Source of the DNA: Octopus sinensis
Lineage: Eukaryota
Direction of reading: 5' to 3'
Assembly (NCBI RefSeq): GCF_006345805.1
Contig: NC_043000.1
Span: 45,818,001 to 45,882,000, forward strand
Length of the DNA: 64,000 bases
A model generated the notes under the pieces. The model ran no database searches and was not told where the DNA came from. It saw only the letters and a list, made by a program, of their open reading frames with translations. A program made the position numbers and the translations under genes. Of this stretch, positions 9,908-63,075 are shown in pieces (position 1 is the first letter of the stretch; each line of letters starts with the position of its first letter).

Positions 9908-10039
9908 GAAATATAAAAATATACAAGCTGCAAAGATACTGAAGATTCAGTATACACAACGTGGCAAAATTACAAGTTGAAAATATGTGGAAAAAAAAAG
10001 TGGAAGAGAAATGCCTTCGTTTCATATACTTTAATATCT

Positions 10040-11562
10040 TTTTTTAAATATACAGACTCAAAACAGTATCTCCTTTTCAGTTCATGCCATCCTAACCACA
10101 CCAAAATATATATCCCATTCAGTCTAGTAAAAAGGATCTGTACAATTGTATCTGACATAACCACTCAGGAAACTCGCCTACAAGAACTCAAAATAACGCT
10201 CATTGGACGTCAGTACCCATCTACACTTATAGAACATGGAATTAAACACGCCAAGAAATTGGACACAAACACATTAAGGACAACAAAGCAAAACACCACA
10301 CCTCACTTTAAATCACTCCCATACATATCAACCCCAAAAACAATGAAGCATACAACACAATTACACAAAATCTCCCTCTGCTCACTCAAGACCCGAAAAT
10401 GAACAGCATCCTAAATACACACAAACTACTAAAATGCAAAAGACAAGACAAATCACTCAAGAAACTCCTAACAAATGCAAAACTATACTCAATACATACG
10501 ATACCAACAGTTAAAAAATGCAGACAACCTAATTGTGGTACACGCCCATACCTAACTGAAGGCTTAGAATTCACATTTCAGCAAAGACAAAAATTCTCAA
10601 TTAAGACTAACTTCACATGCACTTCCCAGAACCTTATCTATGTCCTAACCTGCTCAGCTTGTGGGCACAATTACGAGGGGCGTTCAATAAGTAATGCCCC
10701 TGACCCACTGCCCATAGCAGTAGAGCAACAAAACTTGGCACAATTATTAGTCTTTTTCAACGTAGGCAGACACCTTTTGCATATGCAAATGGTCATTGAT
10801 GATAGTTTCCACAGACCAAGTACTAATCTTGACCTCATGAGCTATTTGGCGAATAGTTATGCGTCGATCTTCCAAAATGGCAACCTCAACTTGATGGAAA
10901 GATGCCTCATCAATGGCAGAAGGGAGGCGACCAGATCTGGGAGCTGTTTTCACAGAGTTCCGACCATGTTTGAATTCACGATGCTAGCGTTTTACAATGT
11001 CATATGATGGGGCGGCATCATCACCATAAGTTACTTTCATTTCATCAAAAGTCTCCCGTGGTGTGCGTCCTTTCAAATACAAAAACTGGATCACTGCTCG
11101 ACACTCAACAGGCACCATTTAACACTTGACTCTGTTCAAACACCTGTAAATCAGAAACCACAATTAGTTCAGAGCTGTAATTTTTCACTTCATTTATAGA
11201 GATATGGATAGTTGCACATGCAAATTTTCAGCTTGATCAAACGACTGCAAGTGGGTCAGGGGCATTACTTATTGAACGTCCCTCGTATGTGCGCCAAACG
11301 AGACTTAATTTGAGACGCAGAGTCATGCTGCATAAAGAACAGATTCATTTCCCTCAATACAAGCAGATATCGCTGAGATTTCCCTCAATACAAGCAGATA
11401 ACACTGAGCGGACATATCGACAGATGTGCAAGTAATAAAATGCCGAATTTTCATATCTTCCCATTATACCTATGCAAAGACTTAATCTCAGTATAAGAAC
11501 GCCTAAACAAGGAAAACCTGTTCATACAAAAGTACACACCACACCTCAATATACAAATTTGA
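10040..11562 (+). mobile_element. Penelope-like retroelement 3' part (RT C-terminus, linker, GIY-YIG endonuclease), interrupted by a mariner derivative
   Basis: KYTDSKQYLLFSSCHPNHTKIYIPFSLVKRICTIVS; linker KKCRQPNCGT; NFTCTSQNLIYVLTCSACGHNY|VRQT...RRRVMLH...ENLFIQKYTPHLN once 10674-11285 is removed; frameshifts and a 31-bp tandem duplication near 11348-11409. Confidence 0.88.
10674..11285 (-). mobile_element. Internally deleted mariner (612 bp) retaining the N-terminal HTH DNA-binding region
   Basis: TA TSDs at 10672-73 and 11286-87; ~36-bp TIRs CGAGGGGCGTTCAATAAGTAATGCCCCTGACCCACT; frame 11118-10747 reads MVPVECRAVIQFLYLKG...RSGR...EDRRITIRQIA...LHMQKVSA|YVEKD with one TAG. Confidence 0.92.
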
Positions 11563-18120: not shown

Positions 18121-18562
18121 TATGGCTGCTCCCTCGTTATCGAGTATGGCCATTGCACGAAGCTTAACTGTTACTGGTGCTGTGATCGAATGGGACTTTT
18201 AAGCCCAGCTAAAGATCTACAATGTCTTGTACAGAATTGGCAACTTAAAACTTTACCAGTAATAGCCGGCTGTAGTTGTAACTGGGCTTCATGTACCTTT
18301 GCATGTACCTGCCGAATTACACTCTCTTCCACATGCCCGACAGATATGATTAGTATGGTGTGTTACACCACCACCAGTGGCCAGGTTGTGACTCATCTCT
18401 CTCGCTTTATGACTACGAAGATGACTCTTGAGTCCAGCTTTACTGAGGCAGGGTCTTGCACAGACATTACATGTCAGCATCAAAGGAAGACCCTTCCCAT
18501 CTGGAAGTGTAACAACGATGCCCTTCCTGACATCCCTCCTTACTTTCTCATGTGCAACTCGA
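18121..18562 (-). mobile_element. RTE-clade LINE 3' end with C2H2 zinc fingers
   Basis: LTCNVCARPCLSKAGLKSHLRSH and HICRACGREC; 3' tail TTAAGCTTCGTGCAATGGCCATACTCGATAACGAGGGAGCAGCC shared with the element at 27768. Confidence 0.75.
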
Positions 18563-18568
18563 GATACA

Positions 18569-18599
<31 letters not shown>

Positions 18600-18699
18600 G
18601 GGCATGTGTTGAGGAGGGATGAGGAGCATATTCTGAGGTGGGGTGGTTGAGTTTGAGGTAAATGGACGAAGAAAGTGAGGTAGACTAGTAAAACATGGA

Positions 18700-31272: not shown

Positions 31273-31687
31273 TATATATATTCAACACATGCAACCATTA
31301 GTCCAGAAAAATTATTTTTCTCTTCTCTTTTTTCCTCTCTCCGTCTGTCTTCTCTTTACTTTTATCCTCTCCCCATCTATTTTCTCATATTTTCTCTCCC
31401 CATTCCTTTATCTAGGAATGTGTTGGCTCCAAACATTAAAGACTTTTTCCATTTTATCTGAGTGTCAAACTAATACACTCTGTTTGTTGTTCCGTCACCT
31501 ATCTCTATTTTTATTTTTTGTGATGTTTGCATCATTTGAAACCACATACACGCGCACACACATGCACAAACACACACACACACCATAAGAGGAGACAACT
31601 TCTCAGAGGAAGGTGTGATTTCTAGTACAGGTAACAGAAGCTACTGTGGATCTTGTCATTAAAACAAACTTGTGAAATCTATATATA

Positions 31688-34600
31688 TGATGAGGTATCC
31701 AAAAGTAACCAGGAACTTCTCTGTGGGACAAGCCCCATGCAGTTCAGGCTTCCAACGCTAGAAGCCATTTGATGCAGTCCTCGGGCATCAGTCTATTGAC
31801 CTGCGTTGTTGACTGATGTCCTGCTGCCACACAGCATGTCTCTGTTTTGCTGTGCTTCTCCCCTGTTTGTAAATTTTTGTGATGTCTGAAATGAAAGAAC
31901 AACATGCTTCTATGAGATTCTGTTTTCTGGTGGAGAAAACAGGGGCTGAAACAGTTGTAATGAATCAAACAGCTTACAAGGATGCTGCCATGCGCAAAAC
32001 ATAAATATACACATGGTTTTTACACTTTAGGAATGGTCTCTTATCACTTGAAGACCAACCTCATTCCGAATGGCTGCTGACTTCTCGAAAAATGAAAACA
32101 TCACAAAACTTTCTGAACTAATCCCCGAGGACCATCACTGACGAAATTGATGAAGTAATTGATATGATTGGTGTCTCCTGAAGTTCTAGCCAATGAATTG
32201 TGATAGAGGAATTGTAGATGGAAAGAGTTGCAGCAAAATTTGTGCCACACTTGCTCACAGAAGATCAAATGCAGACATGACTGAATGCATGTTGTGAAGA
32301 TCAAACGCAGTCATAACAAAATGCATTTTGTGAAATGAATGCATGTTGTGAAGATCAAAAGCAGTCATGACTGAATGCATATTGTAAAATGAATGCATGT
32401 TGTGGAGATCAAAAGCAGTGATGACTGAATGCATGTTGTAAAGGTGAAAAGCAGTCATGACTGAAAGCATGTCGTGAAATGAATGCATGTTGTGCAGATC
32501 AAACGCAGTCATAACTGAATGCATGTCGTGAAATGAATGCATGTTGTGTAGATCAAAAGCAGTCATGACTGAATGCAAGTCGTGAAATGAATGCATGTGT
32601 GAAATGAATGCATGTTGTGTAGATCAAAAGCAGTTATAAAAAAATGCAAGATGTGAAATGAAGGAATGTTGCGAAGATCAAAAGCAGTCATAACTGAATG
32701 CATGTTGTGAAGATCAAAAGCAGTCATAACTGAATGCATGTTGTGAAATGAATGCAAGTTGTGAAGATGAAAAGCAGTCATGACTGAATGCATGTGTGAA
32801 GATCAAAAGCAGTCATAACTAAATGCATGTTGTGAAATGAATGCATGTTGTGTAGATCAAAAGCAGTCATGACTGAATGCAAGTCGTGAAATGAATGCAT
32901 GTTGTGTAGATCAAAAGCAGTTGTAAATAAATGCAAGATGTGAAATGAATGAATGTTGCGAAGATCAAAAGCAGTCATAACTGAATGCATGTTGTGAAGA
33001 TCAAAAGCAGTCATAACTGAATGGATGTTGTGAAATGAATGCATGTTGTGTAAATCGAAAGCAGTCATAACTAAATGCATGTTGTGAAATGAATGCATGT
33101 TGAGAAGATCAAAAGCAGTCATGACTGAACGCATGTTCTGATGATTAAAAGCAGTCATGACTGAATGCATGTTGCGAAATGAATGCATATTGTGATGATC
33201 ATAAGCAGTCATGACTGAATGCATGTTGTGAAGTTCAAAAGCAGTAATGACTGAATGCATGTTGTGAAATGCATGCACGTTGTGAAGATGAAAAGCAGTC
33301 ATGACTGAAAGCATGTCGTGAAATGAATGCATGTTGTGTAGATCAAAAGCAGTCATGACTGAATGCAAGTCGTGAAATGAATGCATGTTGTGTAGATCAA
33401 AAGCAGTTATAAAAAAATGCAAGATGTGAAATGAAGGAATGTTGCGAAGATCAAAAGCAGTCATAACTGAATGCATGTTGTGAAGATCAAAAGCAGTCAT
33501 AACTGAATGCATGTTGTGAAATGAATGCAAGTTGTGAAGATGAAAAGCAGTCATGACTGAATGCATGTTGTGAAGAAGAAAAGCAGTCGTAACTCAATGC
33601 ATGTCGTGAAATGAATGTATGTTGTGTAGATCAAAAGCAGTCATGACTGAATGCAAGTCGTGAAATGAATGCATGTTGTGTAGCTCAAAAGCAGTTGTAA
33701 ATAAATGCAAGATGTGAAATGAATGAATGTTGCGAAGATCAAAAGCAGTCATAACTGAATGCATGTTGTGAAGATCAAAAGCAGTCATAACTGAATGGAT
33801 GTTGTGAAATGAATGCATGTTGTGTAAATCAAAAGCAGTCATAACTAAATGCATGTTGTGAAATGAATGCATGTTGAGAAGATCAAAAGCAGTCTTGACT
33901 GAATACATGTAGTGAAGATAATAAGCAGTCATGACTGAATGCATGTTGTGAAATGAATGCATGTTGTGAAGATCGAAAGCAGTAATGACTGAATGCATGT
34001 TGTGAAATGAATGCATGTTGTGAAATGAATGCATGTTGTGAAGATCAAAAGCAGTCATGACTGAACGCATGTTCTGATGATTAAAAGCAGTCATGACTGA
34101 ATGCATGTTGCGAAATGAATGCATATTGTGATGATCATAAGCAGTCATGACTGAATGCATGTTGTGAAGTTCAAAAGCAGTAATGACTGAATGCATGTTG
34201 TGAAATGCATGCACGTTGTGAAGATGAAAAGCAGTCATGACTGAATGCATGTTGTGAAATGAATGCATGTTGTGAAGATCAAAAGGAGTCATGACTGAAT
34301 GCCTGTTGTGAAATGAATGCATGTTGTGAAATGCAAAAGCAGACATAACTGAGTGCATGTTGTGAAGATCAAAAGTGGTCATAACTGAATGCATTTTGTG
34401 AAATGAATGCATGTTGTGAAAATCAAAAGCAGTCATGACTGAATGCATATTGTAAAATGAATGCATGTTGTGGAGATCAAAAGCAGTGATGACTGAATGC
34501 ATGTTGTAAAGGTGAAAAGCAGTCATGACTGAAAGCATGTCGTGAAATGAATGCATGTTGTGCAGATCAAACGCAGTCATAACTGAATGCATGTCGTGAA

Positions 34601-37600
34601 ATGAATGCATGTTGTGTAGATCAAAAGCAGTCATGACTGAATGCAAGTCGTGAAATGAATGCATGTTGTGTAGATCAAAAGCAGTTATAAAAAAATGCAA
34701 GATGTGAAATGAAGGAATGTTGCGAAGATCAAAAGCAGTCATGACTGAATGTATGTTGCGAAGACCAAAAGTAGTCATAATTCAATGCATGTTGTGAAGA
34801 TCAAAAGCAGTCATAACTGAATGCATGTTGTGAAATGAATGCAAGTTGTGAAGATGAAAAGCAGTCATGACTGAATGCATGTTGTGAAGAAGAAAAGCAG
34901 TCGTAACTCAATGCATGTCGTGAAATGAATGTATGTTGTGTAGATCAAAAGCAGTCATGACTGAATGCAAGTCGTGAAATGAATGCATGTTGTGTAGATC
35001 AAAAGCAGTTGTAAATAAATGCAAGATGTGAAATGAATGAATGTTGCGAAGATCAAAAGCAGTCATAACTGAATGCATGTTGTGAAGATCAAAAGCAGTC
35101 ATAACTGAATGGATGTTGTGAAATGAATGCATGTTGTGTAAATCGAAAGCAGTCATAACTAAATGCATGTTGTGAAATGAATGCATGTTGAGAAGATCAA
35201 AAGCAGTCATGACTGAACGCATGTTCTGATGATTAAAAGCAGTCATGACTGAATGCATGTTGCGAAATGAATGCATATTGTGATGATCATAAGCAGTCAT
35301 GACTGAATGCATGTTGTGAAGTTCAAAAGCAGTAATGACTGAATGCATGTTGTGAAATGCATGCACGTTGTGAAGATGAAAAGCAGTCATGACTGAAAGC
35401 ATGTCGTGAAATGAATGCATGTTGTGTAGATCAAAAGCAGTCATGACTGAATGCAAGTCGTGAAATGAATGCATGTTGTGTAGATCAAAAGCAGTTATAA
35501 AAAAATGCAAGATGTGAAATGAAGGAATGTTGCGAAGATCAAAAGCAGTCATAACTGAATGCATGTTGTGAAGATCAAAAGCAGTCATAACTGAATGCAT
35601 GTTGTGAAATGAATGCAAGTTGTGAAGATGAAAAGCAGTCATGACTGAATGCATGTTGTGAAGAAGAAAAGCAGTCGTAACTCAATGCATGTCGTGAAAT
35701 GAATGTATGTTGTGTAGATCAAAAGCAGTCATGACTGAATGCAAGTCGTGAAATGAATGCATGTTGTGTAGCTCAAAAGCAGTTGTAAATAAATGCAAGA
35801 TGTGAAATGAATGAATGTTGCGAAGATCAAAAGCAGTCATAACTGAATGCATGTTGTGAAGATCAAAAGCAGTCATAACTGAATGGATGTTGTGAAATGA
35901 ATGCATGTTGTGTAAATCAAAAGCAGTCATAACTAAATGCATGTTGTGAAATGAATGCATGTTGAGAAGATCAAAAGCAGTCTTGACTGAATACATGTAG
36001 TGAAGATAATAAGCAGTCATGACTGAATGCATGTTGTGAAATGAATGCATGTTGTGAAGATCGAAAGCAGTAATGACTGAATGCATGTTGTGAAATGAAT
36101 GCATGTTGTGAAGATCAAAAGCAGTCATGACTGAACGCATGTTCTGATGATTAAAAGCAGTCATGACTGAATGCATGTTGCGAAATGAATGCATATTGTG
36201 ATGATCATAAGCAGTCATGACTGAATGCATGTTGTGAAGTTCAAAAGCAGTAATGACTGAATGCATGTTGTGAAATGCATGCACGTTGTGAAGATGAAAA
36301 GCAGTCATGACTGAATGCATGTTGTGAAATGAATGCATGTTGTGAAGATCAAAAGGAGTCATGACTGAATGCCTGTTGTGAAATGAATGCATGCTGTGAA
36401 ATTCAAAAGCAGACATAACTGAGTGCATGTTGTGAAGATCAAAAGTGGTCATAACTGAATGCATTTTGTGATATGAATGCATGTTGTGAAGATCAAAGGC
36501 AGTCATGACTGAATGCATGTTGTGAAATGAATGCATGTTGTGAAGATCAAAAGCAGTCTTGACTGAATGCATGTTCTGATGATTAAAAGAATTCATGACT
36601 GAATGCATGTTGTGAAATGAATGCATGTTGTGATGATCAAAAGCAGTCATGACTGAATGCATGTTATGAAATGAATGCATGTTGTGAAGATCAAAAGCAG
36701 TCATGACTGAATGTATGTTGCGAAGACCAAAAGTAGTCATAATTCAATGCATGTTGTGAAATGAATGCATGTTTTGAAGATGAGACGCAGTCATGACTGA
36801 ATGCATGTTGTGAAATAAATGCATGTTGTGAAGATCAAAAGCAGTCATGACTGAATGCATGTTGTAAAATGAATGCATGTTGTGAAAATCAAAAGCAGTC
36901 TTGACTGAATGCATATTCTGATGATTAAAAGCAGTCATGACTGAATGCATGTTGTGAAATGAATGCATGTTGTGAAATGAATGCCTGTTGTGATGATCAA
37001 AAGCAGTCATGGCTGAATGCATGTTGTGAAGTTCAAAAGCAGTCATGATTGAATGCATGTTGTGAAATGAATGCATGTTGTGAAGATCAAAAGCAGTCAT
37101 AACTGAATGCATGTTGTGAATATCAAAAGTGGTCATAACTGAATGCATGTTGTGAAATTATTGCATGTTGTGAAGATCAAAAGTGGTCATAACTGAATGC
37201 ATGTTGTGAAGATCAGAAGCAGTTATGACTGAATGCATTTTGTTAAATGAATGCATTTTGTGAAGATCAAAAGCAGTCATGACTGAATGCATGTTGTGAA
37301 ATGGATGCATGTTGTGAAGATGAAAAGCATTCGTGACTTTATGCATTTTGTGAAATGAATGCATGTTGTGAAGATCAGAAGCAGTCATGACTGAATGCAT
37401 GTTGTGAAATAAGTGCATGTTGTGAAGATGAAAAGCAGTCATTACTGCATGCATGTCGTGAAATGAATGCATGTTGCGAAGATCAAAATCAGTCATAACT
37501 GAATGCATGTCGTGAAATGAATGCATGTTGTGAAGATCAAAAGCAGTCATGGCTGAATGCATGTTGTGAAATGAATGCATGCTGTGAAGATCAAGAGCAG

Positions 37601-39770
37601 TCATGACTGAATGCATGTTGTGAAATGAATGCATGTTGTGAAGATCAAAAGCAGTCATAACTGAATGCATGTCGTGAAATGAATGCATGTTGTGAAATGA
37701 ATGCATGTTGTGAAAATCAAAAGCAGTCATAACTGCATGGATGTTGTGATGATCAAAAGCAGTCATGGCTGAATGCATGTTGTGAAGTTCAAAAGCAGTT
37801 ATGACTGAATGCATTTTGTGAAATGAATGCATTTTGTGAAGATCAAAAGCAGTCATGACTGAATGCATGTTGTGAAATGAATGCATGTTGTGAAATGAAT
37901 GCATGTTGTGAAGATGAAAAGCAATCGTGACTTTATGCATTTTGTGAAATGAATGCATGTTGTGAAGATCAAAAGCAGTCATGACTGAATGCATGTTGTG
38001 AAATAAATGCATGTTGTGAAGATGAAAAGCAGTCATGACTGAATGCATGTTGTGAAATGAATGCATGTGGCGAAGATCAAAATCAGTCATAACTGAATGC
38101 ATGTCGTGAAATGAATGCATGTTGTGAAGATCAAAAGAAGTCATGGCTGAATGCATGTTGTGAAATGAATGCATGCTGTGAAGATCAAGATCAGTCATGA
38201 CTGAATGCATGTTGTGAAATGAATGCATGTTGTGAAGATCAAAAGCAGTCATAACTGAATGCATGTCGTGAAATGAATGCATGTTGTGAAATGAATGCAT
38301 GTTGTGAAAATCAAAAGCAGTCATAACTGCATGCATGTTGTGAAGATCAAAACCAGTCATGACTGAATGCAAATTGTGGAGATCAAAAGCAGTCATAACT
38401 GAATGTATGTTGTGAAATGAATGCATGCTGTGAAGATCAAAAGCAGTCATGTCTCATTGCATGTTGTGAAGATCAAAAGCTGTCATGACTGAATGCCTGT
38501 TGTGAAATTAATGCATGTTGTGAAGATCAAAAGCAGTCATGACTGAATGCATGTTGTGAAATGAATGCATGTTTTGAAGATCAAAAGGAGTCATGACTGA
38601 ATGCCTGTTGTGAAATGAATGCATGTTGTGAAATGAATGCATGTTGTGAAAATCAAAAGCAGTCATAACTGCATGCATGTTGTGAAGATCAAAAGCAGTC
38701 ATGACTGAATGCATGTTGCGAAATGAATGCATGTTGTAAAATATATATATGTTGTAAAGATCAAAAGTGGTCATAACTGCATGCATGTTGTGAAGATCAA
38801 AGTCAGTCATGACTGAATGCATGTTGTGAAATAAATGCATGTTGTGAAGATCAAAAGAAGTCATGACTGAATGCATGTTGTGAAGATCAAAAGTGGTCAT
38901 AACTGAATGCATGTTGTGAAATGAATGCATGTTGTGAAGATCAAAAGCAGTCATGACTGAATGCATGTTGTGAAATGAATGCATGTTGTGAAGATCAAAA
39001 GCAGTCTTGACTGAATGCATTTGGTGAAATGAATGCATGTTGCGAAGATGAAAAACAGTTGTGACTGAATGCATGTTGTGTTTGGGCCTTATTCTGAAGG
39101 TCATCACTGGTGATGAAAGCTGCTGTTATAGCTTTGATCCGGAAACAAATCAAAAATCAAGTCAATGGAAGCATTCGGTGTCACCATACCCTCAGTAAAA
39201 CTTGTCAATTGAAGTTCAATATGAAGATGATGCTTAATTGTTTCATCGGTGTGTAAGGAATTGTCTATACAGAATTTGTTCCTCCTAGTCAAACTCTTAA
39301 CCAGACATTTTGCCTTGGCAATTCTGAAGCATTTGCAAGACATGGTGAGACGAAAACACCCCAAGCTGTGACAAAGTTGACAGTAGTGGTGTCATCACGA
39401 CAATACACCTGCACACACCACCTTGAGCAAGAGATAGTTTTTGACCAAAAATGGCATGACCCCACTTACCCACCCCCTCTATTCATCCTGTCTTTGCTTC
39501 CTTCAACTTTTTTTTGTTCCTTCAAATGAAAAAATTCTTAAAGGAAAATTTTTTGCAGATGTGGAAGAGGGTGAAGAAAAAAATGAGAGAGGTGTTAAAA
39601 GGCATCACTTTGCAAGAGTTTTAGGCCTGCTTCAAACAGGGGAAATCACATCTGGTCCAATGTATTGCTTCAAATGGAGAATACTTTGAAGGCGGTAACT
39701 GTATAAACATGTAAAACTAAGTGAATAAAATAATATTGCAAAATTCTGGTCTCTTTTGAGTACTATCTAC
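31688..39770 (+). mobile_element. Mariner transposon (~1.27 kb of element) split by an internal 6.8-kb satellite
   Basis: Degenerate TA-flanked TIRs; left part MSEMKEQHASMRFCF...MERVAAKFVPHLLTEDQ; right part KVITGDESCCYSFDPETNQKSSQWK...HHDNTPAH...THPLYSS...GEYFEG. Confidence 0.92.
32260..39080. repeat. Complex minisatellite/satellite of 36-bp and 18-bp units with higher-order duplications
   Basis: Units GAAGATCAAAAGCAGTCATGACTGAATGCATGTTGT and GAAATGAATGCATGTTGT; diagnostic variants recur at offsets 594, 774, 1314 and 2070-2088 bp (all multiples of 18). Confidence 0.98.
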
Positions 39771-40474
39771 TATATTTCTTTCAGTTAACATGGCAACCAT
39801 ATACATATGTAGAACCTAACTATGTTTGTATTTGACATGCACAATGCTCCGCTCTATCTTATTGTTCATGTTCATAATCAGTGACAATATATTTCTTCTA
39901 ATTCTATATACACTGATCGCCCTTAGACATGCTTAGAAGCATATATTTCACTGTGGCTGTCTAAAACCAAAACATGTCTTTTACTTTCACTAGTTGGCTT
40001 CAAAGGTTAGGCCAAATACATTCTGATCTGCATTGTTTATATAGTCAAAATGTTTCACTCAACTGACCTTCTAGAAATTATTTCTCAAAGTTGCTCTTAG
40101 ATTTTAAACACACTTAATGGGAAATTTTCTCAACTGATTGCTTAGATAAACTCAGTTTGATGTTTTCAAACTCACCGTTTTTGAGACCCTACCTTATTTG
40201 CCTTTAGTATTTTCTTTCAGCCATATCAATGGAATCAAAGCCTCTTAGTTTCTTTTTGAAGTCGATATTCTGAGATTGTTGAGATTTTTCATAATGGCTT
40301 TTAATTCTTATAAATATTTTACTTGTGTCAGTCATTAGACTGTGGTCATGCTGGGGCACTGCCTTGAAGAATTTTAATTGAAGGAATTGACCACAGTACT
40401 TATTCTTTAAAGCCTGTTACTAATTCTATCAGTCTTTTATGCAGAATCTAAAATTAGGTGCAGAACCCAAAATA

Positions 40475-41010: not shown

Positions 41011-42665
41011 CACTACTGTGCAAAAATCCTCAGCCACTTTAAACTATTATAAATTTTGACTAATTGCCAACTTAAAAGTGGATGGTTTGCATTGCTTTTT
41101 TTACAGATGAATCATTGGCCTTGTTGGAGTCATTTCCATACCCAATCATTATATTTCATAGAAGGGGTTTTGAATGAAGGAGGCAAATGCGAGACGACCA
41201 ACAAAAATTGCCATGCAAAAGTTTTCTACCACCTCACATAAACCAATCAAAATACAGTGTTTTAAAACTGAAAAATGTCTATAATGAAATTTTATTACAA
41301 AATGTTCATTTAAAAAATTTACTGTACATTAATATTTTGTGTGGCTTCCCTAAACTTGAATAATTGCATCAATGCACCTAAGAAGAGACGTGTACAAATT
41401 CTTCACCATCTCAACATGAGATGCCATTCCCTGTGGCTGAGATCCTACAACTCTTCAAGATTGCATGGATTCTTCTGATGAACTATTCTCTTTAGTTCTG
41501 TCCACATTTGTTTGATGGCATCTATGTCAAGGCTCTGAGCTAGCCAGTCTTTGAAAATGGTAATACCTTCATCAACCAGACTCTGTTGTGGTTCACATGA
41601 TCTGTGGCATGGAGTTCCATCATGCTGAAAAATTTTACCTTCATCCAAGTCTGGCATCAATTTTTCATTCAGAAACTGGATGTATTTGGCACTAATCAGG
41701 TTACTGTCAATTCTAACCAACTTTCTTGAACCATCACTTTTTATGTATCTCTGAAGTTTACCCTCAAACTTAAACCTCAAACTTAACTGCTTTCATCATG
41801 TAACGTGGGTTGTTTCGCTTTCTAATAAAAGAAAATTTATCAGAAGGCCTCCAGGAAACTGAAATAACCTACATTACATGAAAACAGTGAAGTTTGGGGT
41901 TAAGAGTGGAATGCTTTGGAGATACATAAAAAGCGATGGTGCAAGAATGTTGGTTAAAATTGACTGTAACTTGAGCAGTGCCAAATACATCCAGTTGCTG
42001 AATGACAATTTGATACCAGACTTGGATGAAGCTGAGAGTTTTCAGCATGACAGAGTTCCATGCTACATATCACATGCATCACAACAGAATCTGGATGATT
42101 AAGGTGTTACTGTATTGAAAGGTTGGCCAGCTCGGAACCTGACTTAAATATCATTGAGCAAATGTCAACAGAACCAAAGAGAAGAGTTCATCAGAAGAAT
42201 CCATGCAATCTTGAGGAGTTGTAGGATCTCAGTCACAGAGAATGGCATCTCATACCTGTGGGGATGGTAAAGGATTCGTATGCATCTCTTTTCAGGTGCA
42301 TTAAAGCAATTATTCAAACTAAGGGAAGCCACACGAAATATTAACAATTTACAGTAACTTCTTGAAATGAAAATATTGTAATAAATTTTCCTTATAAACA
42401 TTTTTCTGTTTTAAAACACTGCATCTTGATTGGTTTATGTGAGGTGGCCGAAAACTTTTGCGTAGTAGTTTTTGTTGGTTGTCTCACATCTTCCCTTCTC
42501 AATCAGAACCCCTCCTATGAAATATATTGATTAGGTATGGAAATGACTCCAACAGGGCCAATGTTTCATCTGTAAAAAATGCAATGTGAAACATCCACTA
42601 TTGAGTTGGCAATTAATAAAAATTTACAACAGTTTAAAGTGGGTGAAGACTTGTGCACGGTACTG
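41011..42665. mobile_element. Foldback Tc1 derivative: two inverted 3' halves of an IR/DR-type Tc1
   Basis: 41011-41810 is the diverged reverse complement of 41868-42665; both arms encode the DDE C-terminal half (FQHDG.PCH, WPA.S.D...I.QMW); inner and outer direct repeats near 42444 and 42639. Confidence 0.88.
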
Positions 42666-60967: not shown

Positions 60968-61205
60968 ACTGGTGGTGGTAGTGGTGGTGGAGATGGTGCT
61001 GCTGCTGGTGGTGGTGGTGGTGGCGCTGGTGCTGAAGGTGGTGTTGGTGGAGGTGGTGCTGGTGGAGGTGGTGCTGGTGGGGGTGGTGCTGGTGCTGAAG
61101 GTGGTGCTGGTGCTGAAGGTGGTGTTGGTACTGGTGGAGGTGGTGCTGGTTGTGCTGGTAGTGGTGGAGGTGGTGGTGATGGTGGTGCAATTACTGGAGG
61201 TGTAG
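60968..61205. repeat. (GGT/GCT)n trinucleotide low-complexity tract
   Basis: Source of the poly-V and poly-H/Q ORFs. Confidence 0.9.
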
Positions 61206-62245: not shown

Positions 62246-63075
62246 TTGATCAAAATCTACACACCAATGGCTAAAAGAGACAAGTCTGAAAGGGGAAACA
62301 GAAGGTTTTGTTATTGCTGTGCAAGATCAAAGCTTACCTACCAGAAACTACCATGCAAACGTCCTTAGAGATGGATCTGACCCCTCGTGCAGAATTTGCA
62401 AAAAATTCACAAAGATAATTGATCATGTTGTTTCTGGCTGCCCAGTCCTCGCTAAACGGGAGTAACTCATAAGACATGACAGACTAGGGCAGTACATCCC
62501 ATGGAATGCTTGTAACTACTACGAAATTAAATCCCATGGTAAGTGGTACAGGCACCATCTAGAGGATGTAGTAAATGGCGAGGGTGTCACCATCCTTTGG
62601 CACTTCCCGACACAGACAGACAGAAAATTTTACTCCAGTCTACTAGACAGTGTGATCAAGGACTACAACAGAGGAATTTGTCTGCTAATAGATATGTCTG
62701 TCCCACAAAATCAAAATGTCTCAAGAAAGAAATACGCAAAGATTTCTCACCATAAAGATCTGCAAAATGAAATTACAAAAATGTGGAAGCTTAGTACTAC
62801 GATAATACCAGTAGTAATTGGTGCGTTGGGAATAAATAAAGAAGGGAGCTGAGAAGTATATTAAGCAACTCCCTGGTGACTCCAATCTCTATGAACTACA
62901 AAAGATAACCTTGATGGGCGCAACCCTTATACTACAGAAAGCACGCTCCATCTAAAATGGAATAAATGTGGTGATAATTTTAGTATGTATAACAAAACAA
63001 AAGTACACTTGCTACTCTTGGCCTCCAGAGGATGCCCAGTAGCTGAAATAAAGTTATAATGAACAGAAGCCATAA
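62246..63075 (+). mobile_element. R4/Dong-like non-LTR retrotransposon 3' part (CCHC knuckle + restriction-like endonuclease)
   Basis: ETEGFVIAVQDQSLPTRNY...CRICKKFTKIIDHVVSGC...IRHD...ILW...LLIDMSVP...KDLQNEITKMWK...IIPVVIGALG; flanked by trinucleotide microsatellites. Confidence 0.88.

What the first reader, a model, noticed from the sequence alone, without database searches (positions are those of the whole stretch)
31688..39770. A 6.8-kb satellite born in place from 36 bp of a mariner transposase coding sequence
Seen: the array starts exactly in frame after the mariner linker KFVPHLLT (the WVPHEL-equivalent motif). Its 36-bp unit reads EDQKQS*LNACC in the transposase frame, which is the expected continuation of the transposase, and the 18-bp unit (EMNACC) is a sub-duplication. 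The transposase resumes at KVITGDE after the array. Removing the array leaves ~1.27 kb with both TIRs, a normal mariner length. Inference: the TGA/TAA at the same codon in most units probably derives from CGA (Arg), so expansion post-dates inactivation of this copy. The array is far more homogeneous than the decayed flanks, which suggests recent amplification. Both the parent sequence and the start point of the satellite are still visible.
Basis: partly seen in the sequence, partly recalled or inferred. Interest (0 to 1): 0.8.

Follow-up and report, generated by a model that had tools for sequence, protein, structure and literature searches.

The report
Minisatellite grown inside a dead transposon
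A 6.8-kb tandem repeat sits inside a broken mariner transposon and is made of the transposon's own coding DNA; it likely began long ago by copying slips at short repeats, a clean new example of a known way repeats arise.

Summary
Observation confirmed, timing corrected. Window 32260-39079 holds 241 head-to-tail units (138 of 36 bp, 103 of 18 bp) inside one copy of a large dead mariner family. Sister copies carry the 36-mer once, right after the linker. The array's commonest unit differs from the family majority at 0 of 28 non-CpG sites, so it is native coding DNA. The 18-mer matches a slip between two ACTGAA words 18 bp apart, and one sister copy has the reciprocal 18-bp deletion. Both exact junction patterns occur only at this locus of the 2.7-Gb assembly, and array junctions appear in four public runs. 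Corrections: 25 bp of transposase are missing after the array. The array is probably old, not recent: units are 5.5-8% from their founder, against 8.7% (family median) and 13.4% (host flanks). Only 0.6-2.1-kb higher-order duplications look recent. An apparent second allele proved to be a contig chimera. Transposon-derived minisatellites are common, and a ~40-bp transposase-derived satellite is published from Chenopodium. Verdict: new member of a known kind, unusually well preserved and datable.

The parts
31686..31687 (+). left TA target-site duplication
   Evidence: sequence; TA precedes the TIR in most sister copies
31688..31714 (+). 5' terminal inverted repeat (about 27 bp, imperfect)
   Evidence: compared with ends of 27 sister copies
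31882..32259 (+). 5' remnant of the transposase gene (DNA-binding part and linker KFVPHLLT at 32236-32259), 5 in-frame stops
   Evidence: translation; 76-78% identity to best sister copies; family Pfam HTH_48
32260..39079 (+). compound tandem array: 138 units of 36 bp (native coding helix after the linker) and 103 units of 18 bp (slip product)
32350..34417 (+). higher-order block 1 (2,068 bp)
   Evidence: 11 mismatches in 2,033 aligned bases against block 2; 0 in 1,145 bp of the core
34418..36487 (+). higher-order block 2 (2,070 bp); holds a 774-bp internal duplication at 96.5%
36488..39079 (+). right part of the array without the 2-kb duplication; holds a 594-bp duplication (37284-37857 vs 37878-38451) at 95.8%
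39080..39096 (+). 3' junction: 17 bp left of the 42 bp that sister copies have before KVITGDE; 25 bp missing, frame shifted
   Evidence: spanned by one contig of run X5
39097..39700 (+). 3' remnant of the transposase gene (catalytic domain from KVITGDE to GEYFEG), frameshifted and with stops
39744..39770 (-). 3' terminal inverted repeat, outer 7 bp decayed
39771..39772 (+). right TA target-site duplication
   Evidence: sequence

Best explanation
This is a single-locus compound minisatellite made of the host mariner's own coding DNA, which likely began by slippage or unequal exchange at short direct repeats after the copy was dead and likely grew by unequal exchange into larger blocks. Order of events, all inferred. 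(1) A mariner copy inserted at TA and lost two CpGs in the helix after the linker: CGA to TGA (the stop) and GCG to GCA. (2) Fairly early in the copy's life, before any non-CpG change reached this stretch, two small duplications arose: 36 bp between GAA triplets, and 18 bp between two ACTGAA words. Together they gave a 54-bp AB module plus free A units. (3) Misalignment and conversion expanded and mixed the units, which drifted 5.5-8% from the founder. (4) Blocks of 594, 774 and about 2,080 bp were then duplicated, the last very recently. (5) 25 bp of native sequence after the last unit were lost; since B keeps its first letters, this came after B arose. The array has not spread to other loci in this assembly, and no function is needed to explain it.
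For: Sister copies carry the 36-mer once, in the run KFVP(R/H)LLT-EDQKQSRLNACR-ELKEQLEV-DPDLFxKVITGDE; a 34-letter native pattern has 146 exact hits across the genome. Array majority vs family majority: 0 of 28 non-CpG differences. The A|B and A|A junction patterns give 32 and 23 exact genome-wide hits, all in this array; in-window control 32 of 32 and 23 of 23. Sister copy L118 has an exact 18-bp deletion between the same ACTGA words. 12 of 102 deletions of 8-45 bp in 88 copies fall in this 61-bp stretch against 5.8 expected (P = 0.013, region chosen afterwards). All 22 A units (8 types) that keep the ancestral CGT end are followed by B, the native context; other A units are followed by B in 73 of 114 cases. 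Raw-data support: one X5 contig spans A-B-A and the 3' junction with 4 mismatches and no gaps, and the array letter at the B|A junction has 22-53 times single-copy depth in all four runs. The family is mariner: Pfam HTH_48 and Transposase_1, Mos1 E = 2.5e-39.
Against: The 36-bp duplication has only a 3-bp microhomology (GAA), shorter than the 5-10 bp of the Haber-Louis model as cited in PMC3389668. B needs one extra C-to-A change (A in 102 of 102 units); it could instead be an 18-bp inner deletion of A. The deletion excess is mild, and another 60-bp bin has a similar rate. The stretch is not unusually rich in 5-bp repeats and does not fold better than shuffles. The CGT-B link could be one re-created CpG that spread, since no unit shows the opposite decay (CAT). 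Dating assumes equal rates, but conversion inside arrays breaks that, and the host flanks are unusually diverged. The 2-kb duplication could not be checked against reads.
Confidence: 0.85

Rival explanations
1. Same origin, but the whole array is a recent burst; unit diversity comes from a high mutation rate inside the array.
For: Units are about half as diverged as the flanks; the 2-kb blocks have 0 mismatches over 1,145 bp; the host flanks are more diverged than 26 of 27 TIR-anchored copies, so local rates may be high.
Against: A late founder should carry about 4 private non-CpG changes in 28 sites; it has none (P = 0.018). There are 69 distinct A and 24 distinct B types. Units outside the duplicated blocks are still 5.5% from the majority.
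Confidence: 0.12
2. The first duplications were made during gap repair after transposase cut this copy, by template switching at microhomologies, not by ordinary replication slippage or meiotic exchange.
For: The birth looks early, when the family may still have been mobile. The family has many internal-deletion derivatives and microhomology deletions. Repair-based models are reviewed in PMC9659126 (passages).
Against: No direct trace. Two CpGs had already decayed in the founder, so the copy had been resident for some time. No long tandem expansion was found inside the mariner parts of 101 loci scanned, some of them the same place.
Confidence: 0.15
3. The array is real, but its 2.08-kb duplication (about 30% of its length) is an assembly artefact such as two alleles laid end to end.
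For: 0 mismatches over 1,145 bp; the only two 1-bp deletions in the array lie in the first 450 bp of block 1 and look like long-read errors.
Against: The blocks differ by 11 substitutions and by gain or loss of whole units near their ends, as expected of real unequal exchange. Contig depth cannot decide.
Confidence: 0.15
4. A foreign satellite inserted into the mariner, or an array built elsewhere and reinserted.
For: The 3' junction has lost 25 bp and is locally divergent.
Against: The unit is the family's own sequence at exactly this place; there is no second array in the assembly among 40 scored of 389 candidates or by exact junction patterns.
Confidence: 0.02
5. The array is kept because its minus strand encodes a histidine-rich repeat protein (HNMHSVMTAFDL / HNMHSF).
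For: One minus-strand frame gives stop-free runs of up to 431 codons; it has 18 stops against 112-236 in the other five frames.
Against: Only one codon per unit can reach a stop by one change, and 3 of 4 possible stop alleles are present. Synonymous alleles are 16 of 69 in A (20 of 108 possible) and 2 of 24 in B (7 of 54 possible), so no sign of selection. The only Pfam hit was Ras, with no stretch passing on its own.
Confidence: 0.02

Closest known systems
Chenopodium CficCl-61-40 satDNA from the tnp2 transposase of CACTA element Jozin (PMC7320549; abstract and passages)
   Same: A ~40-bp piece of a DNA-transposon transposase gene is the start monomer of an adjoining array in the same orientation; arrays of about 2-5 kb in long reads.
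   Different: Plant CACTA, not animal mariner; there the repeat became the major genome-wide satellite. Here it stays at one locus, both halves and both TIRs of the element remain, and two unit lengths are mixed.
TE-derived minisatellites, e.g. 7,276 human cases, Alu-derived arrays, mouse Ms6-hm (PMC3389668, PMC6947457, PMC9659126; passages)
   Same: A short segment of a resident element is tandemly amplified in place; initiation by slips at 5-10-bp direct repeats (Haber and Louis model, seen only as cited).
   Different: Most human cases without flanking repeats have only two units; this one has 241, with nested higher-order blocks. Only the 18-mer has a 6-bp flanking repeat.
Xenopus miDNA4 Tc1/mariner MITE with internal satellite (as described in PMC12628747 part 2 of 5, and PMC12054243 passages)
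   Same: A tandem array between the TIRs of a Tc1/mariner-type element; microhomologies invoked.
   Different: miDNA4 is proposed to have captured a pre-existing repeat and spreads with it. Here the unit is transposase coding DNA and only one copy of the family carries the array.
Mos1 / mariner DD34D transposons (PDB 3hos)
   Same: Host family aligns over Mos1 residues 9-345; the unit corresponds to the residues right after WVPHEL.
   Different: All copies examined are decayed (10-15% from the family majority); subfamily not determined.

Membership tests
mariner (DD34D) transposon copy | TA target-site duplication and ~28-bp TIRs | tested here: met
   TA at both ends; TIRs match sister copies, outer 7 bp of the 3' one decayed
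mariner (DD34D) transposon copy | transposase with Mos1-type HTH and DDD catalytic domain | tested here: met
   sister copy L028: HTH_48 E 7e-12, Transposase_1 E 1e-11, Mos1 E 2.5e-39. Two short host fragments gave no Pfam hit; the host is 76-81% identical to the best sister copies
mariner (DD34D) transposon copy | 34 residues between second and third catalytic D | tested here: met
   34 residues in L028, where the third position is N and aligns to the Mos1 D; D in L131
TE-derived minisatellite | unit of 10-100 bp equal to a segment of the host element | tested here: met
   0 of 28 non-CpG differences from the family majority
TE-derived minisatellite | array lies in place inside the element, single locus | tested here: met
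TE-derived minisatellite | founder segment flanked by 5-10-bp direct repeats (one initiation model, not required of all) | tested here: inconclusive
   met for the 18-mer (ACTGAA; reciprocal deletion in L118); only GAA for the 36-mer
TE-derived minisatellite | copy-number variation among individuals (VNTR) | tested here: inconclusive
   junction depth 51, 53, 22 and 23 times single-copy in four runs, but contig depth is not copy number
classical satellite DNA family | very long or multi-locus arrays | tested here: not met
   6.8 kb at one place
classical satellite DNA family | higher-order repeat structure | tested here: met
   594-, 774- and ~2,080-bp blocks
classical satellite DNA family | heterochromatic or centromeric location | not testable with these tools
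   position G000:C4:45.85 Mb on a contig of at least 164 Mb; no chromatin data

The most novel reading that the evidence does not exclude
A satellite family caught before it leaves home: one helix-coding stretch of a mariner transposase is a slip-prone cradle, where the same 18-bp misalignment deleted DNA in a sister copy and duplicated it here. The locus preserves the whole ladder 18/36 to 54 to ~600-770 to ~2,080 bp, is still growing, and can be dated against thousands of sister copies, so it would directly test models of minisatellite birth and higher-order repeat formation.
Probability: 0.4. Interest if true: 0.5.

Novelty: new member of a known kind. Interest (0 to 1): 0.33.

Why it matters
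The start of minisatellites is hard to study because the unduplicated parent is usually lost (PMC3389668, introduction passage). Here the parent survives in about 2,800 candidate sister copies, both flanks survive, and a sister copy shows the reciprocal deletion. Founder sequence, microhomology and relative age can therefore be read directly. It also shows that a homogeneous-looking array need not be young. It adds an animal mariner case to a route published for a plant CACTA transposase. It does not point to a new mechanism or function.

Tried and rejected
1) Apparent second allele. Contigs of runs X3 and X4 seemed to carry the missing 25 bp at this locus. A paralog at G000:C7:30.23 Mb has exactly X3's inserted letters, the same two upstream differences, and one exact 31-mer shared with window 39092-39122. 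X3's contig is therefore a de Bruijn chimera, and X4's, which shows the same three substitutions, very likely is too. Rejected as evidence of polymorphism. 2) Hairpin-driven birth. The unit holds a 12-bp palindrome, but 5 array stretches fold no better than shuffles (z +0.18 to -1.40; 4 controls +0.46 to -1.05). 3) Selected antisense protein: no signal. 4) Indel depletion in the array: 2 seen against about 4 expected from the family ratio of 0.042 events per substitution; not significant. 5) Mutation gradient towards the array: host bins 8-19% with no trend. 6) Other long expansions inside sister copies: 101 loci scanned, only 2-3-copy micro-duplications. 7) Host gene context: of 10 window stretches scanned with Pfam (7 outside the element), 9 had no hit and one array ORF had a weak Ras hit; whether the element lies in an intron is unresolved. 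8) No RNA holder listed; no evidence either way. 9) Word shares below 0.5 in all runs and no cover of 39082-39084 in X1 are not read as absence. 10) Contig depth could not test the 2-kb duplication. 11) Earlier findings of the scan: none returned. 12) Literature listings for a mariner-transposase-derived array showed none by title or abstract start; most subscription papers are not searched.
Full report
Observation. The window lies at G000:C4:45,818,001-45,882,000 of a 2.72-Gb assembly. Between 32260 and 39079 the sequence parses into 241 head-to-tail units, 138 of 36 bp (A) and 103 of 18 bp (B), with 95 AB, 42 AA and 8 BB neighbours. The first unit follows KFVPHLLT without a gap, and KVITGDE begins at 39097. 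TA dinucleotides and TIRs bound the element at 31688 and 39770; the outer 7 bp of the right TIR are decayed. Without the array the element is 1,263 bp.

The host family. Searches with the two halves gave 2,833 and 2,762 first-look candidates, 40 scored each, best paralogs 76-81% identical. Sister copy L028 has an unbroken frame matching Pfam HTH_48 and Transposase_1 and Mos1 at E = 2.5e-39, with KFVPRLLTEDQKQSRLNAC opposite RWVPHELNERQMERRKNTC and 34 residues between the second and third catalytic positions. Of 61 loci examined, 27 were full length.

The unit is native. In the 36 sister copies shown and the 27 (overlapping sets) the 36-mer occurs once, or partly deleted, followed by ELKEQLEV-DPDLFxKVITGDE. 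A 34-letter native pattern has 146 exact hits across the genome. The array's commonest A unit equals the family majority at 28 of 28 non-CpG positions. Codon 7 is TGA 12, CGA 5, CAA 4 among 27 copies, and never CGA among 138 array units. The stop therefore came from CpG decay and was already in the founder unit.

How the units likely arose. The native sequence has ACTGAA twice, 18 bp apart: once inside the unit and once in the following ELK codons. A slip between them gives B, apart from one C-to-A change (A in 102 of 102 full B units; also in 3 of the 36 copies). Copy L118 has the reciprocal 18-bp deletion. Among 88 copies, 12 of 102 deletions of 8-45 bp fall in this 61-bp stretch against 5.8 expected (P = 0.013). 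The region was chosen afterwards and another bin is as rich. The 36-bp duplication has only GAA at its ends. All 22 A units that end in the ancestral CGT (8 types) are followed by B, the native context, against 73 of 114 others. This fits an AB module that kept the old junction, but the units are not independent and a re-created CpG is not excluded. Folding gave no signal. After the last unit 25 bp are missing and the frame shifts.

Age. At non-CpG sites A units are 7.1% from their majority: 5.5% in the unduplicated right part and 8.0% over 68 distinct types. The host flanks are 13.4% from the family majority (152 of 1,136 sites). Thirty copies picked only by a TIR pattern have a median of 8.7% over the 5' part in the 27 kept; three were dropped for short cover or over 30% difference. 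The host (14.8% there) exceeds 26 of those 27, with no gradient towards the array. A founder as decayed as the flanks would show no private change in 28 sites with P = 0.018. With equal rates assumed, the array is roughly 40-90% as old as the insertion. What is young is the upper tier: 594-bp and 774-bp duplications at about 96%, and two ~2.07-kb blocks with 11 mismatches in 2,033 bases and none over 1,145 bp.

Single locus, and real. An array query found only single units elsewhere among 40 scored of 389 candidates. Exact A|B and A|A junction patterns gave 32 and 23 hits, all inside this array, equal to the in-window counts; diverged arrays elsewhere could be missed. Five of 14 listed runs, from three studies, hold 10-41% of the array's words; X1 and X2 may be the source sample. 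Laid on 38990-40400, one X5 contig spans A-B-A and the 3' junction with 4 mismatches and no gap. The array letter at the B|A junction has 22-53 times the depth of the unique flank in all four runs. The runs carry four organism labels but show no difference over 460-615 bp of flank, so they say nothing about deeper age. The full length and the 2-kb duplication remain unchecked.

A trap. X3 and X4 contigs seemed to show an allele with the missing 25 bp. A paralog on C7 carries exactly X3's letters and shares one exact 31-mer with 39092-39122. These contigs are assembly-graph chimeras (shown for X3, very likely for X4), and I reject the allele.

Function. One minus-strand frame is nearly open and histidine-rich. 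Only one codon per unit can mutate to a stop, 3 of 4 possible stop alleles occur, and synonymous changes are not clearly favoured. It is a by-product. No RNA holder was listed, which is no evidence.

Comparison. Tandem repeats born from element segments are well documented: 7,276 human cases, of which 300 have 5-20-bp flanking repeats (PMC3389668, passages), and reviews (PMC12628747 part 2 of 5; PMC9659126 and PMC6947457 passages). The closest case is the Chenopodium satellite whose ~40-bp start monomer is a piece of the tnp2 transposase gene, with adjoining arrays of 1.9-5.0 kb (PMC7320549, abstract and passages). Three searches showed no mariner-transposase case in their listings, which is weak evidence of absence; supplements were not read. 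Haber and Louis 1998 and the miDNA4 study were seen only as cited.

Verdict. The feature is real and its origin in place is shown. The initiating slips, the order of events and the age are inferred. It is a new member of a known kind, worth keeping as a clean, datable example. Interest 0.33.

Noticed in passing
G000:C8:101,977,400-101,993,550 (L174-L177; L006-L010, L014, L016): A second, independent tandemisation of the same mariner family: seven copies of the first ~960 bp of the element at a ~1.98-kb period (one spacing of 2.95 kb), about 99% identical, with the rest of the element only after the last copy.
   Followed up: partly
L028:848-1972 minus (G000:C30:9.68 Mb): A sister copy 10.6% from the family majority keeps an unbroken transposase frame of about 350 codons; its third catalytic position reads N, not D. 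Probably a chance survivor among ~2,800 copies.
   Followed up: partly
many sister copies, e.g. L005, L017, L018, L024, L027; joint 39122 to 39552: A common internal-deletion derivative of the family lacks about 430 bp of the catalytic domain just after KVITGDE, which suggests a non-autonomous subfamily that spread.
   Followed up: no
window 31688-32259 and 39081-39770: The host copy is more diverged from the family majority than 26 of 27 TIR-anchored copies, without a gradient towards the array. Older insertion or locally high mutation rate; unexplained.
   Followed up: partly
window 32255-39125, minus strand: Nearly open histidine-rich reading frame along the array; no sign of selection.
   Followed up: yes
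window 9917-11007 (+), 41445-41792 (-), 62466-62852 (+), 18289-18684 (-): Open frames that look by eye like remnants of other mobile elements (GIY-YIG-like, Tc1-like, non-LTR ends; labels recalled, not from a call); no Pfam hit at E 0.001.
   Followed up: no
window 40286-40400: A very high-copy repeat: summed contig depth tens of thousands of times the unique flank in all four runs.
   Followed up: no
window 60970-61187: A decayed (TGG)n tract that reads as a glycine-rich open frame.
   Followed up: no
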